Assembly: GCA_050311575.1 (NCBI GenBank)
Contig: JBNOKO010000001.1
Coordinates: 1,219,099-1,283,098 of the forward strand
Direction: 5' to 3'
Source of the DNA: Candidatus Krakonobacterium acarorum
GTDB taxonomy: Bacteria > Bacteroidota > Bacteroidia > SolTP2
Length of the DNA: 64,000 nucleotides
Under the pieces are notes generated by a model. The model made no database searches. It worked only from the letters and a program-made list of their open reading frames with translations, and was not told the origin of the DNA. Each line of letters starts with the position of its first letter. Positions within the stretch are counted from its first letter, which is position 1. Positions 11,989-18,399 of the stretch are shown piece after piece. The position numbers and the translations under genes are program-made.

Positions 11989-13035
11989 TTACTTACAAGT
12001 ATTTCTTAGCTCGTCGTGGTCATCAATTTTGGGATAAACTATGTTTATTCTCCTTACATCTTCTGCCGATAATTCAGTATTTTCATAGATCCATGGGTCG
12101 CCAAATTTACTAGTTATTGCAGGCGTCACTAATGAAGCTAATAAGTTTCTAATCCAAGGATCTGAACTAAAAGAAGGTGTCATCATTATAGAATATCTAT
12201 CAAATTTGGGATCGTCTTTAATTACTCTCTGCGCTTGCAATGAAAACTTTAAGTTATTTGCAACTTTCTGTGTTGCAAATTGTATTAATGAATCTATGGC
12301 ATTTTGATGTATATTTATATATTGAGAGCTTTTAGGTCTTACGTTTTCATCAACATATCCTAATACATGCCCAAGCTGATGTACTATATCTGTAATCCCA
12401 CAATTATCAGTAAAATAAACTAATCCTTGATTATTAGGGCGTGCTCCAATAGTAGCAGCACAAAGTTTACCGTGATATTGACCGGCGTAGTATTTTATAA
12501 CCGTAGCTCCATCCGGAACCTTTTGGCCGTCTTTAACCGTTATCACGTGAAACTCAAGGTTCGGGTTAGCCTTTTTCCACACAGCTATCCCGTTTAGTAT
12601 AGCGTCTTCTAAACCATAAGACATATCGCTAATATTTAGGGCTAAAAATACCATATTGCACTGCCAGGTATTGGCTCCGGCAAATATGCATACAGGGTCA
12701 GTTTTTGGATTCCTGGTTTGTTTATTAACATCTATTTTAAATTCATTATGCTTATGCAACCTCGATAATTCTTCTATTTCAATAGAATCTTCATGTTTAA
12801 CGTTAGAGTATTTTTTAATAATTTTTACATCGTTCGTATTTATTAAATTGTGGCCATTATATAGCAGGAAATCTTTATCGTTTGCCAACTCTTTGAATAC
12901 CCTAACGTCTCCATTGTTTTTGTCTATTCCCAATGTATAATCTGCAGACTCATTTTCTATAATATTATTAGAAGATTTACTACAGGCTGATGTAAATATT
13001 ACTAGTGCTATAAATGCGAGCTTATTTATTTTCAT
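11989..13035 (-). CDS. Astacin-like (M12A) lipoprotein, predicted catalytically inactive (type B, copy 3)
   Basis: Lipobox FTSAC; degenerate zinc motif HQLGHVLGYVDENVRP (E to Q, third His to D); Met-turn-like SIMM; C-terminal LSAEDVRRIN. Confidence 0.8.
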   Translation of the reverse strand: MKINKLAFIALVIFTSACSKSSNNIIENESADYTLGIDKNNGDVRVFKELANDKDFLLYNGHNLINTNDVKIIKKYSNVKHEDSIEIEELSRLHKHNEFKIDVNKQTRNPKTDPVCIFAGANTWQCNMVFLALNISDMSYGLEDAILNGIAVWKKANPNLEFHVITVKDGQKVPDGATVIKYYAGQYHGKLCAATIGARPNNQGLVYFTDNCGITDIVHQLGHVLGYVDENVRPKSSQYINIHQNAIDSLIQFATQKVANNLKFSLQAQRVIKDDPKFDRYSIMMTPSFSSDPWIRNLLASLVTPAITSKFGDPWIYENTELSAEDVRRINIVYPKIDDHDELRNTCK

Positions 13036-13112
13036 GGATTTTATTTTTGTATGTTTATAAATTAGTCTAGGTTGTTATATTAGTTATTAATCTCAACACA
13101 GGTAGGTTATGG

Positions 13113-14273
13113 CTACAAGTGTTCGTTTACGGTATATCTATCAGTTGTAAGAGGGTATACTGTGTTCACTTTTTTTATATCCAAGTCAGATATCATTTTA
13201 TCCGGATCTGTAATTTCCGGATCTTGACACAACTCGTTTGAGTCCTTAGTGAGGAAAACCGGAGCATTATACCGCATTAATATTTCTCTTGCCTCGAGAG
13301 GGTAATATGAAGGATACATCGTGATAGATTTATGATCAAAAGGCGCCAGAGTAGTGTTATCACTGTATACATCATATTTTTGAATATATGAAGGTATCAT
13401 CATTTGATAATAATCTCCGGTTGGATCTGCAGTACCTGCAAGATTGTTAAAATCTAATACACTACTGTCCTGATTGTAGAATCCGGGTAATACCTCCATC
13501 AAAGCAGTTCTCTGAAATGTAATATAATTATCGCGTGATGGTCTCTGGTGCTCATGTATAAAACCAAAAGTATGAGCGAATTCGTGCACCACAGCTGATA
13601 ATTCCATGTGTTCAGATAACACGATCGCTCCCGGTATTCCTAACTCAGTTCCCACGGTCGCGTAGGCAACCTGGTCCGGGCTAAATCTGTATAGGTGTAC
13701 CGCTACTTTATAGGTACTGTCGCCTTTTATGTTTGCCTCTTCATAAGTTATAAACTCAAACCCTATATTAGTTTTTTCTCTCCATAATTCTATAGCTTTA
13801 TAAACTCTGTTTAATAAAGGGGCGGGCATATAGTTATCTATACCTATTCTAACAATACGGTCAGGCCATATACTGACTCCTTTCATTACACATACAAGAC
13901 TATCATTACTATATGAAGCCGGTAAAATATATTTATTAGTTTCATGTTCATTTATCAGTTTTGCCAGTTCGGTTTTATCTATTGGCTCGTTTTGCTTATA
14001 TATTTTTATCGGCTCTACCTGGCTTTTATGTATTAGAATATCGCCGCCTTTGGATAAAAAATCATGCGTTATATTTCTGTATAAATTTATTTCTCCATTG
14101 GTTTTATTAATACCTAATATAATATTGGTTCCTGTACTGCTTTGCTTCGAACTTGTTTCTGATTGTTTATTGATTATAAGGTCTTTTTTGCAAGATGATT
14201 GTGTAAGAAATACGAGCCCTAGCAGAAATACTATAAGTGCTGAGGTGTAAGAGAGATTTTTCGATAGTTTCAT
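13113..14273 (-). CDS. Astacin-family (M12A) zinc metalloprotease lipoprotein (type A, copy 3)
   Basis: Lipobox QSSC; HEFAHTFGFIHEHQRPSRDNY astacin signature; Met-turn SITMY. Confidence 0.9.
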   Translation of the reverse strand: MKLSKNLSYTSALIVFLLGLVFLTQSSCKKDLIINKQSETSSKQSSTGTNIILGINKTNGEINLYRNITHDFLSKGGDILIHKSQVEPIKIYKQNEPIDKTELAKLINEHETNKYILPASYSNDSLVCVMKGVSIWPDRIVRIGIDNYMPAPLLNRVYKAIELWREKTNIGFEFITYEEANIKGDSTYKVAVHLYRFSPDQVAYATVGTELGIPGAIVLSEHMELSAVVHEFAHTFGFIHEHQRPSRDNYITFQRTALMEVLPGFYNQDSSVLDFNNLAGTADPTGDYYQMMIPSYIQKYDVYSDNTTLAPFDHKSITMYPSYYPLEAREILMRYNAPVFLTKDSNELCQDPEITDPDKMISDLDIKKVNTVYPLTTDRYTVNEHL

Positions 14274-14279
14274 AAAAAT

Positions 14280-14481
14280 TTATATGGTTTTGTGTTTTTC
14301 CTTGTTTGTTATAATTTCTAGTTTTTGATGCATGGTTTCAATTTTTTCGTTGATTTCTATCAATATATCATAGTGCTTGTTCTTCATACGTTTTTAGTAA
14401 ATAGGTAATGATACTTGATACGTCTATAGAGTTATTATCGTTTTCTGTTTGTCCGGCAGATGCAAAATTTAGTAAATGCTT
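14280..14481 (-). pseudogene. Remnant of the C-terminus of protein X (copy 3)
   Basis: Translates KHLLNFASAGQTENDNNSIDVSSIITYLLKTYEEQAL* then, after a frameshift, IEINEKIETMHQKLEIITNKE; matches the end of 17470-18399. Confidence 0.85.
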
Positions 14482-14581
14482 AGACTTTCTGGTTTATTGA
14501 TAATATTATAGTGTATTGTATTAAAAATGATTTTTTAGTTGTCACGACAATCGGATAACTTTTTTGGGTTGAACAGGTATT

Positions 14582-16953: not shown

Positions 16954-16974
16954 TGGTAATTAGCACAGATTAGG

Positions 16975-17006
16975 ATATACATAGGTATTATAATACCTAT
17001 GTATAT
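16975..17006. terminator. Perfect 32-bp palindrome downstream of cassette copy 1
   Basis: atatacataggtatta|taatacctatgtatat. Confidence 0.55.
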
Positions 17007-17052
17007 ATCTTTATTTTTTTTAATTATTAGTTTCTCATTGACAATACAACTT

Positions 17053-17449
17053 TTATTTGCAAGTAGTTTTTAGATCGTCTTGGTCGTCAATTTTAGGGTA
17101 AACTTTATTTATTCGCCTTATATCTCCTGCTTATAATCTGGTATTTTTGGGTATAATTCCGGCACCCGTTCAACTAGTCAATAAAGGTTGTCTAGGATTT
17201 TCTAAGAAGTAGCCAATAAGAGGATTAAAAGTATAAGAAGGTGTCATCATTATAGAATATCTATCAAATGGAGGTGTGTTCTCATGAACTTGCATTTCAA
17301 AACTTGAAAGCTCTGGCATAACTGCTTCCTTAATTGAAAGCATTTTCTACCAGATCTATAGCGCGTTCATGTATCTCTAAATTATTCCTTACTAACCCTA
17401 GCAGAAGCATAATTGCCGCAGTATATAGGCTATTTTTCTATAGTTGCAT
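17053..17449 (-). pseudogene. Deletion-fusion pseudogene: type A N-terminus joined to type B C-terminus (copy 1)
   Basis: MQL*KNSLYTAAIMLLLGLV (A-type signal), then ...PPFDRYSIMMTPS...RL*AGDIRRINKVYPKIDDQDDLKTTCK* (B-type end), with stops and a frameshift. Confidence 0.88.
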
Positions 17450-17469
17450 AAAAAAATTTATATGTTTTA

Positions 17470-18399
17470 TTATTCCTTGTTTATTAAAACATCGAGTTTT
17501 TGCTGGATACTTTCAACTTTTTTGTTCATTTCTATAATATATAGAGCTTGTTCCTCAACCGTTTTTAATAAAGAGGTGATAATATTTGATACGCTCATCG
17601 AGTTATTATCGTTTTCTATTTGTTTTGCAGATGGAAAATTTGGTAAATGTTTATTTGTATTAACAAATTTTTCTAAACTATGTAAGCTTGCAAGAGTATA
17701 ATTTTTGTCAAAAACATAGTCTGGCCATTTGTCTAAATTGCTTATTTGAAGGTTAGTAGCCTTAATTGCACCTTTTACTAATAATTTAAATTTTTCAGAA
17801 TCTTTACCTGTGATTTTGCTGGGATCAACTCCCAGACCAATCTTGCCATTAGTGTCAATAGCCATAGCAAGGCTGCCATTTGCCCAAAAGTTTAGTCCGT
17901 TTTGTGGTCCATAGGAACCATTATTGCTACTGGCAATACCGGTTGTTGACTCTGAATAGGACGAGCCTCCAAAAAAGATACCTCCATTGCTATAGCCATC
18001 AGAAAGATTATCGGGGTCGATGTGTAGGCGAGCAATCTTAGCAGGTTCGCCAGTCGCTTCTAATGCGCCTTTCACAGTTAGACTTTTATTCATTTGAACC
18101 GCACCATTGTTATCTATAAACATTCTTAGTTGGTAATTGGTGATAAAATTTAACCCGTAAGATGGTCCGTATTTAGGATTTGGAGGCCCACTTGTTATTT
18201 TTTCTCCTGTTCCAACTGTTTCACCAAAATATAAGGAGTTCCCATTAAGACCATCGTTACTGCGATAAACCAGAAACCAGCCAGAATCATTTCTAGGTTG
18301 GATTGCTGAAGGAGTGTTAGTGTTGAGATTTTGAGCCTGTATATTAGAAGTTAGCACTAATAGTAAAGACAATATTTGTAGCGATATAATTTTTCTCAT
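17470..18399 (-). CDS. Secreted protein X: tail-fibre-like repeats plus C-terminal WPDYVF coiled-coil (S74-chaperone-like) domain
   Basis: Sec signal MRKIISLQ..IQA; two repeats (YGPSYGLNF..MFIDNNG / YGPQNGLNF..MAIDTNG); LLVKGAIKA..WPDYVFDKNY..HLPNFPSA..LLKTVEEQALYII coiled coil. Confidence 0.8.
   Translation of the reverse strand: MRKIISLQILSLLLVLTSNIQAQNLNTNTPSAIQPRNDSGWFLVYRSNDGLNGNSLYFGETVGTGEKITSGPPNPKYGPSYGLNFITNYQLRMFIDNNGAVQMNKSLTVKGALEATGEPAKIARLHIDPDNLSDGYSNGGIFFGGSSYSESTTGIASSNNGSYGPQNGLNFWANGSLAMAIDTNGKIGLGVDPSKITGKDSEKFKLLVKGAIKATNLQISNLDKWPDYVFDKNYTLASLHSLEKFVNTNKHLPNFPSAKQIENDNNSMSVSNIITSLLKTVEEQALYIIEMNKKVESIQQKLDVLINKE

What the first reader, a model, noticed from the sequence alone, without database searches (positions are those of the whole stretch)
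11989..18399. Triplicated three-gene cassette (X, active astacin A, dead astacin B) with reciprocal gene loss
Seen, in transcription order: copy 1 has intact X (18399-17470) and an A/B deletion-fusion pseudogene (17449-17053). Copy 2 has an X remnant (16953-16894), A (16869-15724) and B (15619-14582). Copy 3 has an X remnant (14481-14280), A (14273-13113) and B (13035-11989). The remnants are missing from the ORF track and appear only on manual translation. The net retained set is one X and two diverged A/B pairs. Inference: X-A-B is a functional unit, possibly an undescribed surface system in which a fibre-like protein works with a protease/pseudoprotease pair, and one X now serves two pairs.
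Basis: partly seen in the sequence, partly recalled or inferred. Interest (0 to 1): 0.88.

Follow-up and report, generated by a model that had tools for sequence, protein, structure and literature searches.

The report
Fibre–astacin gene cassette inside rRNA operon
A small host-associated bacterium carries three decaying tandem copies of a gene set (a fibre-like secreted protein, a latent zinc protease and a dead copy of that protease) wedged inside a ribosomal RNA operon, and the fibre–protease pair turns out to be a conserved, undescribed two-gene unit also found in free-living marine relatives.

Summary
Window 11989-18399 (minus strand) is a tandem triplication, period about 2.59 kb, of X - A - B. 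X is a secreted fibre-like protein. A is a lipoprotein pro-astacin with an intact zinc site. B is an astacin paralogue that lacks the catalytic Glu, the third His and the Met-turn Tyr. Copy 1 keeps X plus an A-start/B-tail remnant. Copies 2 and 3 keep A and B plus 19- and about 61-codon X tails.

New findings:
- The array lies between the 16S gene and tRNA-Ile of an rRNA operon. The genome's second rRNA operon holds X'-A' at the same place, and a third cassette follows tRNA-Leu.
- X directly upstream of an astacin carrying the same N-terminal domain recurs in Tenacibaculum and Bizionia (3 of 5 independent loci). It was seen beside about 1 of 176 other astacin loci. X-A is therefore a conserved operon.
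- B is one lineage-specific clade under purifying selection.
- A carries the animal-type Asp-switch motif.
- The X family matches Bdellovibrio MAT trimeric fibres.

Physical interaction, surface location and expression remain unshown. Reading: an amplified, partly decayed host-interaction module. It is a new variant of known kinds, of moderate interest.

The parts
19182..20709 (-). 16S rRNA gene, upstream end of the rRNA operon that holds the array
   Evidence: Rfam RF00177, 1529.8 bits. An identical second copy lies at genome 455179-456706.
18400..19181 (-). AT-rich 16S-to-X spacer (about 23% GC at 18500-18999), 100% identical in the two rRNA operons. It contains a perfect 18-bp hairpin at 18591-18630.
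   Evidence: Composition; identity profile; hairpin I6; fold -26.5 kcal/mol, z -6.85, 0 of 200 shuffles as good.
17470..18399 (-). X, copy 1, intact. 309 aa: signal peptide, Gly-rich beta region, C-terminal WPDYVF / HLPxxPS domain and a terminal helix.
   Evidence: ORF; family alignments; family profile matches MAT fibres 8ond/8oml/8ol4; no Pfam, NCBIfam or PHROG family for X itself. The 5' ~500 nt are 100% identical to X' of the other rRNA operon.
17390..17449 (-). Remnant of the A1 start (about 21 codons, stop at codon 4)
   Evidence: tblastn with A3: 62% identity, E 0.21; translation; junction alignment.
17053..17346 (-). Remnant of the B1 tail (about 97 codons, two in-frame stops)
   Evidence: tblastn with B3 E 7e-20; with P0033 72% identity, E 8e-41; translation.
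16894..16953 (-). Remnant of the X2 tail (last 19 codons, one in-frame stop)
   Evidence: tblastn E 0.006; translation; repeat family D8; alignment A7.
15724..16869 (-). A2: lipoprotein pro-astacin, intact zinc site (HELGHTVGFIHEH, SIMNY)
   Evidence: Pfam PF01400, E 1e-13; motifs.
14582..15619 (-). B2: astacin paralogue with a degenerate active site (HNIGHVLGYVDEN, SIMMI)
   Evidence: Pfam PF01400, E 1.8e-10; motifs; B clade.
14298..14484 (-). Remnant of the X3 tail (X aa 258-318, frameshift and stops)
   Evidence: tblastn E 7.5e-16; translation.
13113..14273 (-). A3: lipoprotein pro-astacin (HEFAHTFGFIHEH, SITMY) with pro-domain motif K75-G-G-D78-I79
   Evidence: Pfam; AF2 model pLDDT 78; astacin fold Z 18.6; zymogen alignments start at model residue 74.
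11989..13035 (-). B3: astacin paralogue with a degenerate active site (HQLGHVLGYVDEN, SIMMT)
   Evidence: Pfam PF01400, E 2.4e-10; motifs.
11697..11872 (-). tRNA-Ile(gat) 11798-11872 and tRNA-Ala(tgc) 11697-11771, the usual spacer tRNAs, here downstream of the array
   Evidence: ARAGORN; Rfam.
7984..11044 (-). 23S rRNA (8146-11044) and 5S rRNA (7984-8096), downstream end of the operon
   Evidence: Rfam. Block 7900-11882 is 100% identical to genome 448171-452153.
254..340 (-). tRNA-Leu(gag). It lies 571 nt upstream of, and co-oriented with, a third cassette (X''-B''-A''-fragment) just left of the window at genome 1214945-1218781.
   Evidence: ARAGORN; ORFs.

Best explanation
The region is a real tandem triplication of a three-gene unit that is being whittled down by deletions. 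The unit is built on an older, conserved two-gene operon: a Sec-exported, fibre-like protein (X) followed directly by a lipoprotein pro-astacin (A). In this lineage A was duplicated once to give B. B has lost the catalytic Glu, the third zinc His and the Met-turn Tyr, yet stays open and constrained.

Shown:
- The triplication and its remnants.
- The A and B active-site states.
- The single origin of B.
- Purifying selection on both A and B.
- Conservation of the X-A adjacency in other orders.
- The position of the array between 16S and tRNA-Ile of one rRNA operon, with a sister cassette at the same place in the other operon and a third cassette after tRNA-Leu.

Inferred mechanism:
- X is exported and forms a short trimeric surface fibre of the MAT / tail-fibre kind.
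- A is held on the membrane by its lipidated pro-domain and kept latent by an aspartate switch (K-G-G-D78-I). Cleavage after the pro-domain would both activate it and free it from the membrane.
- B keeps the fold and the pro-domain but cannot cut. It most likely binds the same ligand or partner as A, or modulates A.
- Together they form a host-surface attachment and proteolysis module that a host-restricted bacterium amplified.
- Being co-oriented downstream of stable-RNA genes, the cassettes may be transcribed by read-through from those promoters.
- After the triplication, redundant copies decayed, leaving one X and two A/B pairs in this array.
For: Triplication and decay:
- tblastn and translations, DNA repeats with period 2584-2596 nt, junction alignment.
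- The same structure at 99% identity or more in a DNA run with another organism label: 14 pieces laid, 13 at 99% or more, all 30 bins covered, no indels.

A active, B dead:
- Alignment and motif table.
- Pfam astacin above cut-off for all four.

A3 structure:
- The AF2 model has the astacin fold: Z 18.6, rmsd 2.8 A, 194 residues aligned to 6ht9_A.
- Zymogen structures align from model residue 74 (8a28_B from its residue 34; 3lq0 from 17P). This puts K75-G-G-D78-I79 in register with F35-E-G-D38-I39 of the Limulus zymogen (PMC9629494 abstract and passages).

Lipoprotein: an invariant Cys after the hydrophobic N-terminus in 18 of 18 aligned family members.

B history:
- One B clade, 94/94 support; A2+A3 100/100.
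- dN/dS is 0.34 for A2/A3 and 0.39 for B2/B3.
- The lost B1 has an intact orthologue elsewhere (P0033, 72% identity to the remnant against 55-57% to B2/B3).

X-A linkage:
- All three loci of this genome have X followed by an astacin, with 8- and 14-nt overlaps at two of them.
- Outside the genome, X sits directly upstream of the astacin in 4 of 6 loci whose astacin has the N-terminal domain: L054, L055, L056, L133. L133 is the same X as L056, so this is 3 of 5 independent loci.
- One weak, non-adjacent X hit was found in the 176 other astacin loci held (76 + 78 + 22).
- 0 of 11 generic X-family loci have an astacin within 1.5 kb.
- This genome's X genes and the Tenacibaculum X genes form a clade with 96/97 support.

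X fibre-like:
- The family profile hits Bdellovibrio MAT fibres: 8ond E 3.9e-13, 8oml E 4.7e-9, 8ol4 E 1.2e-7 (PMC10769870 abstract and passages).
- PHROG tail-fibre families match the Tenacibaculum X (E 1.8e-6) and P0012.

rRNA context.
Against: - No direct evidence that X, A and B touch or act together.
- X alone gives no PDB, Pfam or PHROG match. Its monomer model is poor (pLDDT 62), and trimerisation was not tested.
- 2 of 5 independent outside loci with the N-terminal-domain astacin lack X (L053, L134), so the pairing is not obligatory.
- B occurs only here and in one unnamed relative. Gene order differs between loci (X-A-B against X-B-A).
- dS is high (0.8-0.9), so the dN/dS values are rough.
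- No Bacteroidota-type promoter motif (TAnnTTTG) lies in any intergenic stretch of the array: 2 hits, both inside genes, against 3.7 expected. Nothing shows read-through from the 16S promoter.
- RNA-library contigs cover parts of X, A3, B3 and the spacer at depth about 2, but no silent control stretch was laid, so they do not prove transcription.
- The Asp-switch register rests on the first residues of the aligned ranges, not on a residue-by-residue alignment.
Confidence: 0.6

Rival explanations
1. Pure decay of a redundant duplication. The triplication is a neutral accident of unequal recombination in a shrinking genome. X, A and B act independently, or some not at all. 'Reciprocal loss' reflects only which deletions happened first, and the surviving genes are on their way out.
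For: - Many fragments of the family occur genome-wide: the A1 and B1 remnants, two X tails, a 129-aa A fragment at locus 3 with a weak psiX/psiA before it, and an 85-aa fragment at genome 1301134-1301391.
- The genome is 1.31 Mb with 36 tRNA genes found by ARAGORN, which is typical of reductive evolution.
Against: - A2/A3 and B2/B3 have dN/dS of 0.34 and 0.39 after 40% or more amino-acid divergence.
- All four are intact and unchanged in frame in a second strain.
- 71 invariant columns across the five aligned B-type sequences.
- The X-A adjacency is conserved across orders.
Confidence: 0.2
2. A mobile or phage-derived island. A tail-fibre-like gene plus protease cargo integrated next to stable-RNA genes (16S, 16S, tRNA-Leu), as islands often do, and was then copied together with the rRNA operon.
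For: - All three cassettes lie directly downstream of, and co-oriented with, a stable-RNA gene.
- X-family members hit PHROG tail-fibre families.
- With the A3 protein as query, no match in 0 of 40 class relatives; with the A1 profile, 17 of 400 other class genomes had a match, catalytic domain only.
- Bacterial astacins are proposed to be horizontally acquired (PMC9848320, abstract and passages).
Against: - No integrase, transposase or other mobility ORF is evident among the ORFs of 40 aa or more between 11.6 and 19.2 kb, judged by eye; only the five cassette genes and the 57-aa B1-remnant ORF were scanned against Pfam.
- No direct repeats bracket the array.
- GC content is 28-40%, close to the genome's 31.8%.
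- Tenacibaculum and Bizionia X-A pairs have no tRNA within the 10-kb flanks held, less on one side of L056.
Confidence: 0.1
3. A is the maturation protease of X. In related fibres a C-terminal S74 chaperone domain cuts itself off after trimerisation. In the X subfamily that lacks S74, the neighbouring astacin would remove the C-terminal WPDYVF/helix domain in trans, and B would be a non-cutting holder.
For: - The X-family stalk is homologous to MAT fibres. MAT fibres come in S74 and non-S74 forms, and in the S74 forms the chaperone domain is cleaved off (PMC10769870 passages).
- The genes are tightly coupled, with overlapping reading frames.
Against: - Most WPDYVF-domain proteins have no astacin neighbour (0 of 11 loci), so the domain does not in general need such a protease.
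- No cleavage site is known.
- Nothing was tested here.
Confidence: 0.1

Closest known systems
Astacin-family (M12A) zymogens: crayfish pro-astacin (3lq0), Limulus LAST (8a28), pro-meprins
   Same: - Catalytic fold: Z 15.9-18.6.
- HExxHxxGxxHEH zinc motif, Met-turn SxMxY and the family-specific Glu in A2 and A3.
- An x-G-D-I motif in the pro-domain, in register with the aspartate switch F-E-G-D-I.
   Different: - Bacterial, and lipoprotein-anchored through the pro-domain.
- The pro-domain is a folded, roughly 100-residue beta-rich domain rather than a mostly unstructured peptide.
- No CUB, EGF or MAM domains.
- Encoded in an operon with a fibre gene.
Bacterial astacins of Bacteroidota: myroilysin (5czw, 5gwd, 5zjk) and flavastacin
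   Same: - Same phylum and same catalytic family (phmmer E 4.4e-6; Z 14.5).
   Different: - Myroilysin lacks the FXGDI motif and uses a cysteine switch (PMC9848320 and PMC9629494 passages). A2 and A3 carry the Asp-type motif.
- No fibre-gene partner or dead paralogue came up for myroilysin or flavastacin in the passages read.
Bdellovibrio MAT (mosaic adhesive trimer) fibres, non-S74 class (e.g. Bd2133, 8ond)
   Same: - Signal peptide, then a beta-rich stalk with NGxVGIG-type motifs; profile match E 3.9e-13 over about 50 positions.
- An alternative C-terminal domain in place of the S74 chaperone.
- Surface-displayed adhesins in Bdellovibrio (PMC10769870).
   Different: - X is much shorter (206-309 aa against about 1000).
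- X's C-terminal WPDYVF/HLPxxPS domain plus helix has no solved counterpart found here.
- X alone gives no match.
- Trimer formation was not tested.
- The MAT N-terminal ~130-aa domain was not compared.
Pseudoenzyme paralogues that partner their active relatives (e.g. the AdoMetDC prozyme of trypanosomes, the pseudo-caspase FLIP)
   Same: - A dead paralogue kept next to the active enzyme under purifying selection.
- Papers seen only in a search listing.
   Different: - No evidence here that B binds or regulates A.
- Metzincin pseudoproteases in bacteria were not found in my one search.
Unlinked or split rRNA operons of reduced and host-associated genomes
   Same: - The 16S gene is separated from the rest of the operon by several kilobases of protein-coding DNA: 7.3 kb and 3.0 kb between 16S and tRNA-Ile.
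   Different: - The order 16S - tRNA-Ile - tRNA-Ala - 23S - 5S and the orientation are kept.
- Both operon copies carry paralogous cassettes at the same place.
- The 100%-identity tract shared by the two operons runs 500 nt into the X gene.
- That unlinked rRNA genes are widespread is recalled, not read here.

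Membership tests
Astacin metallopeptidase (M12A), active enzyme - A2, A3 | Zinc-binding consensus HExxHxxGxxH followed by the family-specific Glu | tested here: met
   HELGHTVGFIHEH (A2) and HEFAHTFGFIHEH (A3). The consensus is quoted in the PMC9848320 abstract.
Astacin metallopeptidase (M12A), active enzyme - A2, A3 | Met-turn with Tyr (SxMxY) | tested here: met
   SIMNY (A2) and SITMY (A3).
Astacin metallopeptidase (M12A), active enzyme - A2, A3 | Astacin catalytic fold and profile membership | tested here: met
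   Pfam PF01400: 51.8 and 51.3 bits against a cut-off of 22.5. A3 model against 6ht9_A: Z 18.6, rmsd 2.8 A, 194 of 202 residues.
Astacin metallopeptidase (M12A), active enzyme - A2, A3 | Pro-segment with an FXGDI-type aspartate switch | tested here: inconclusive
   K-G-G-D-I (A3) and E-G-T-D-I (A2). Zymogen chains align from model residue 74 (8a28_B from residue 34, 3lq0 from 17P), which places D78 opposite D38 of LAST. The register is inferred from range starts only, and no coordinates were inspected.
Astacin metallopeptidase (M12A), active enzyme - A2, A3 | Proteolytic activity | not testable with these tools
   Needs an enzyme assay.
Astacin metallopeptidase (M12A), active enzyme - B2, B3 | Catalytic Glu, third zinc His and Met-turn Tyr | tested here: not met
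   HNIGHVLGYVDEN / SIMMI (B2) and HQLGHVLGYVDEN / SIMMT (B3). The same losses occur in B'', P0031 and P0033. They are still homologues: PF01400 at 41.3 and 40.8 bits.
Bacterial lipoprotein (A and B) | N-terminal hydrophobic segment ending in a conserved Cys | tested here: met
   Cys28 (A3 numbering) is invariant in 18 of 18 aligned members. No signal-peptide predictor was available, and lipidation was not testable.
MAT / tail-fibre-like trimeric fibre (X) | Homology of the stalk to solved MAT beta-helix/prism fibres | tested here: inconclusive
   Family profile A6 against 8ond_A: E 3.9e-13 over profile positions 104-152. X alone has no hit at E up to 1 other than chance-level rows.
MAT / tail-fibre-like trimeric fibre (X) | Homotrimer formation | not tested
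   Only a monomer model was made (pLDDT 62).
MAT / tail-fibre-like trimeric fibre (X) | S74 chaperone-protease domain (S74 subclass) | tested here: not met
   No Pfam family at E up to 0.1 other than a sub-threshold DUF3712. X would belong to the non-S74 kind.
Canonical bacterial rRNA operon | Gene order 16S - tRNA-Ile - tRNA-Ala - 23S - 5S on one strand | tested here: met
Canonical bacterial rRNA operon | Short non-coding spacer between 16S and the spacer tRNAs | tested here: not met
   7309 nt holding five intact genes (window) and 3035 nt holding two genes (second operon).

The most novel reading that the evidence does not exclude
A growth-coupled surface weapon built into the ribosomal RNA operons. 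The MAT-like trimeric fibre X docks the lipid-anchored pro-astacin A and its dead twin B through the N-terminal domain that only X-linked astacins possess. Contact with a host target releases the aspartate switch, which frees active A from the membrane, while B holds the substrate without cutting it. The cassettes are transcribed by read-through from the 16S and tRNA promoters, and rRNA-operon gene conversion keeps them homogenised. Dosage and sequence of a host-interaction module would thus be tied to the ribosomal RNA genes.
Probability: 0.15. Interest if true: 0.8.

Novelty: new variant of a known kind. Interest (0 to 1): 0.55.

Why it matters
1. It defines a conserved fibre-plus-pro-astacin operon in Bacteroidota. 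I found it described in no paper in my searches. This gives a first functional handle on the widespread WPDYVF-domain fibre family.
2. These bacterial astacins carry the animal-type aspartate-switch motif, which the only structurally studied bacterial astacin lacks. That bears on the proposed animal-to-bacterium transfer of the family.
3. It offers a natural metzincin pseudoprotease, conserved for a long time next to its active sister. That makes a tractable case of pseudoenzyme evolution.
4. Protein genes sit at the same spot in both rRNA operons, and the shared identity tract ends inside a coding sequence. This allows a direct test of whether rRNA promoters and rRNA gene conversion can be co-opted for host-interaction genes in reduced genomes.

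Tried and rejected
- Complex prediction of X (residues 22-309, alignment A6) with A3 (residues 29-386, alignment A4): score 0.00 in two runs, controls not run, verdict 'no answer'. This is no evidence either way.
- AF2 monomer of X: pLDDT 62, pTM 0.36. It was too poor for a fold search, and none was made.
- Sigma-70 promoter and terminator scan of 11600-21200: 36 promoter-like sites against 42 expected, and 7 terminator-like sites against 5.6 expected, so uninformative.
- Bacteroidota -7 motif TAnnTTTG: 2 hits, both inside genes, against 3.7 expected.
- B-type profile (A3) in genome contigs and metagenome contigs: no relative found.
- Word-based protein searches with A3 and with alignment A4 gave almost only the genome's own proteins.
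- NCBIfam: only a far sub-threshold LegP match (61 bits against a cut-off of 300). This was rejected as membership.
- RNA evidence: a poly-A RNA run gave 5 partial reads, at the 16S edge only. Two metatranscriptome contig sets cover parts of X, A3, B3 and the spacer at depth about 2. No silent control stretch was laid, so transcription is not shown.
- Intergenic B-to-psiX segments show no significant similarity to each other or to the region upstream of X.
- A weak B-like N-terminal remnant in the A'-to-tRNA-Ile spacer of the other operon (E 0.002) and a weak psiX at locus 3 (E 0.032) are kept as leads only.
- Literature searches for 'WPDYVF' (0 papers), astacin plus Bacteroidetes lipoprotein, unlinked rRNA plus ORF in the spacer, astacin pseudoprotease and Tenacibaculum plus astacin (2 unrelated papers) found nothing on this module.
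Supplementary Table 1 of PMC10769870, which lists the MAT family, may bear on whether X-like proteins were already counted as MATs.

Full report
**What is there.** On the minus strand of window 11989-18426 there are five intact ORFs: X (309 aa from 18399), A2, B2, A3 and B3. A2, A3, B2 and B3 all match Pfam Astacin above its cut-off. X matches no Pfam or NCBIfam family.

tblastn of the five proteins against 11801-19200 gives:
- A2/A3: 56% identity, E 3e-143.
- B2/B3: 60% identity, E 1.5e-137.
- A against B: 21-25% identity over the full length.
- An X tail before A3 (14484-14298): E 7.5e-16.
- A B tail after X (17292-17056): E 7e-20.
- A 19-codon X tail before A2 (16953-16897): E 0.006.
- A 21-codon A start right after X (17449-17390): E 0.21.

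Three-frame translation shows the in-frame stops and the frameshift in the remnants. The two weak remnants are backed by DNA evidence. The three junctions between the X 3' end and the A start align at 66-73% pairwise identity, and 0 of 60 shuffles per pair reached the observed value. The repeat finder gives a period of 2584-2596 nt with third copies at 17026-17535.

Rfam and ARAGORN place the array inside an rRNA operon. The order on the minus strand is 16S (19182-20709), the array, tRNA-Ile (11798-11872), tRNA-Ala, 23S (8146-11044) and 5S.

The genome is one contig of 1,312,108 bp with 31.8% GC and 36 tRNA genes found by ARAGORN. It stands alone in its family among the 40 relatives offered; all of them share only its class. 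It encodes GldM and GldN, and X homologues carry Bacteroidota labels.

There is a second rRNA operon at genome 448417-456706. There too, an X gene (X') and one active-type astacin (A') lie between 16S and tRNA-Ile. The two operons are 100% identical over window 7900-11882 (5S to 10 nt upstream of tRNA-Ile). They are also 100% identical over about 17900-20880, which covers the 16S leader, 16S, the 782-nt spacer and the first ~500 nt of X. Beyond that point X and X' fall to about 58% nucleotide identity.

A third cassette (X''-B''-A''-A fragment) lies just left of the window at genome 1214945-1218781. It starts 571 nt downstream of tRNA-Leu (window 254-340) and is co-oriented with it. All three cassettes thus follow a stable-RNA gene.

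**A and B.** A-type proteins (A2, A3, A', A'') keep HExxHxxGxxHEH and SxMxY. B-type proteins (B2, B3, B'') have Q or N for the catalytic Glu, D or N for the third His, and T, I or N for the Met-turn Tyr.

All 18 aligned family members share a Cys after a hydrophobic N-terminus, as lipoproteins do. They also share a roughly 100-residue N-terminal domain.

The AF2 model of A3 (pLDDT 78, pTM 0.77) has the astacin fold. Residues 128-378 align with mature astacin residues 1-201 at Z 18.6, and Foldseek's best match is an astacin zymogen. Zymogen chains align from model residue 74 (8a28_B from residue 34; 3lq0 from 17P). This puts K75-G-G-D78-I79 opposite the F35-E-G-D38-I39 pro-peptide motif, whose Asp38 binds the zinc in the Limulus zymogen (PMC9629494, abstract and passages). 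The motif is described as shared among animal astacins and absent from bacterial myroilysin, which uses a cysteine (PMC9848320, passages). The register is inferred from range starts only.

If A is activated by cleavage near residue 126-128, the catalytic domain would be released from its lipid-anchored pro-domain. This step is an inference.

**History.**
- In a maximum-likelihood tree, the B-types form one clade (94/94): (B'' + P0031) and (P0033, (B3, B2)).
- A2 and A3 are sisters (100/100).
- Branch lengths for A2-A3 and B2-B3 are similar, as expected if A and B were copied together.
- NG86 estimates give dN/dS of 0.34 (A2/A3, dS 0.94) and 0.39 (B2/B3, dS 0.79).
- P0033, from an unnamed source, is 72% identical to the copy-1 B remnant over 97 aa, against 57% and 55% to B3 and B2. 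The third B therefore exists intact elsewhere, and the triplication predates that split.
- A DNA run with another organism label holds the whole stretch: 14 pieces, 13 at 99% identity or more, no indels. It carries the same pseudogenes, and depth doubles over the two-copy rRNA blocks.

**Is X-A a unit?** A profile of the seven paralogues found 12,021 astacin-domain proteins at E up to 0.001 among 1.84 billion representatives. Only about 15 of them matched over the full length including the N-terminal domain.

Sampling of the class:
- 17 of 400 other genomes had an astacin-domain match. None covered the N-terminal domain.
- With the A3 protein as query, 0 of 40 relatives matched.
- The X C-terminal domain was found in 20 of 40 relatives.

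Scanning genome contigs with a profile of the distant full-length relatives kept 80 loci. Four have the N-terminal domain: L053 Chryseobacterium, L054 and L055 Tenacibaculum, and L056 Bizionia. In L054, L055 and L056 an X-family gene (hmmsearch E 1e-30 to 1e-41) lies directly upstream on the same strand, overlapping or abutting the astacin start. Among the other 76 loci there was one weak hit (L091, E 2.8e-5), 4.6 kb away on the opposite strand.

The metagenome scan kept 80 loci. Two have the N-domain. L133 has X, but that X is identical to the Bizionia X over 73 aa. L134 has no X. None of the 22 class-scan loci had X within 1.5 kb. Conversely, 0 of 11 generic X-family loci had an astacin within 1.5 kb.

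This genome's X genes and the Tenacibaculum X genes form a clade (96/97) apart from ten other family members. The Bizionia X is a long branch, and a single clade of all six is not rejected (p-AU 0.47). The genomic context of those ten other members is unknown.

X-A is therefore a conserved, probably translationally coupled operon. B-type genes were found only in this genome and the source of P0031/P0033.

**What X is.** X has a signal peptide ending in A-Q, a Gly-rich beta region and a conserved C-terminal block (WPDYVF...HLPxxPS...EE..LY) ending in a long helix.

A profile of the family matches solved Bdellovibrio fibres: 8ond Bd2133 at E 3.9e-13, plus 8oml, 8ol4, 8on4 and 8ojn. These are the surface-displayed 'mosaic adhesive trimer' fibres. 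They exist with or without a self-cleaving S74 chaperone domain (PMC10769870, abstract and passages).

PHROG tail-fibre families match the Tenacibaculum X and P0012. X alone matches nothing, and its monomer model is poor. 'Fibre-like' is thus supported at family level, and trimerisation is untested.

**Mechanism and its limits.**
- Shown: the anatomy, the active and dead states, selection, the conserved X-A pairing and the rRNA context.
- Inferred: X as a surface fibre; A as a lipid-anchored Asp-switch zymogen released on activation; B as a non-catalytic binder or modulator; a role in host interaction. The stretch occurs in 20 runs of 15 studies under several organism labels, in keeping with a host-associated organism, although no habitat was checked by laying those runs.
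- Also inferred: transcription by read-through from stable-RNA promoters.

No promoter motif was found within the array. A perfect 18-bp hairpin at 18591-18630 (z -6.85) could be a processing or termination site. RNA-library contigs touch X, A3, B3 and the spacer, but without a control stretch.

**Novelty.** Astacins, pseudoenzymes, tail-fibre-like adhesins, tandem duplication with decay, and split rRNA operons are all known. New here are four things:
- The conserved fibre-pro-astacin operon.
- The Asp-switch motif in a bacterial astacin clade.
- A conserved astacin pseudoprotease clade.
- Paralogous cassettes at the same site in both rRNA operons, with the shared identity tract ending inside X.

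My literature searches found no description of any of these.

Noticed in passing
window 7900-11882 and about 17900-20885: The two rRNA operons of the genome are 100% identical over these two blocks. The second block ends about 500 nt inside the X coding sequence, so concerted evolution of the rRNA operons appears to homogenise the first ~165 codons of X and X'. The remaining codons are only 50% identical.
   Followed up: yes
window 18591-18630: A perfect 18-bp inverted repeat with a 4-nt loop lies in the 16S-to-X spacer (RNA fold z -6.85). No U-tract follows it. It could be a processing or termination signal between 16S and the cassette.
   Followed up: partly
window 16975-17006: A perfect 32-nt palindrome (16+16, no loop) lies between the B1 remnant and the X2 remnant, at one of the deletion scars.
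   Followed up: no
genome 1214945-1218781 (just left of the window); tRNA-Leu at window 254-340: A third cassette, X''(248 aa)-B''(357 aa, dead)-A''(363 aa, active)-A fragment (129 aa), starts 571 nt downstream of tRNA-Leu(gag). Its gene order is X-B-A, unlike the window's X-A-B. Weak psiX and psiA-start remnants lie between A'' and the fragment (E 0.032 and 9e-6).
   Followed up: partly
genome 452144-452419 (second rRNA operon, spacer between A' and tRNA-Ile): A weak match (E 0.002, 36% over 28 aa) to the N-terminus of B-type protein P0033 hints that this cassette once had a B gene too.
   Followed up: no
genome 1301134-1301391 (outside the window): An isolated 85-aa ORF carries an astacin zinc-site fragment (H-A-L-G-H...HEH type): one more decayed family member.
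   Followed up: no
window 23686-26351: gldN and gldM (type IX secretion / gliding core genes) lie about 3 kb upstream of the 16S gene, so the reduced genome keeps at least part of a T9SS. X, A and B show no recognised T9SS C-terminal domain in the Pfam scan.
   Followed up: no
L053 9393-9464 and 10154-11002 (Chryseobacterium sp. RU37D): Here the N-domain astacin has no X gene upstream. Instead it lies about 700 nt downstream of a co-oriented tRNA-Cys, another case of this astacin type following a stable-RNA gene.
   Followed up: no
window 11690-19300, run X3: A strain sequenced under a different organism label differs by only a dozen substitutions over 7.6 kb. Six of them cluster at 17915-17941, at the edge of the rRNA-operon identity block; they may be the other operon's variant collapsed into the contig.
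   Followed up: no
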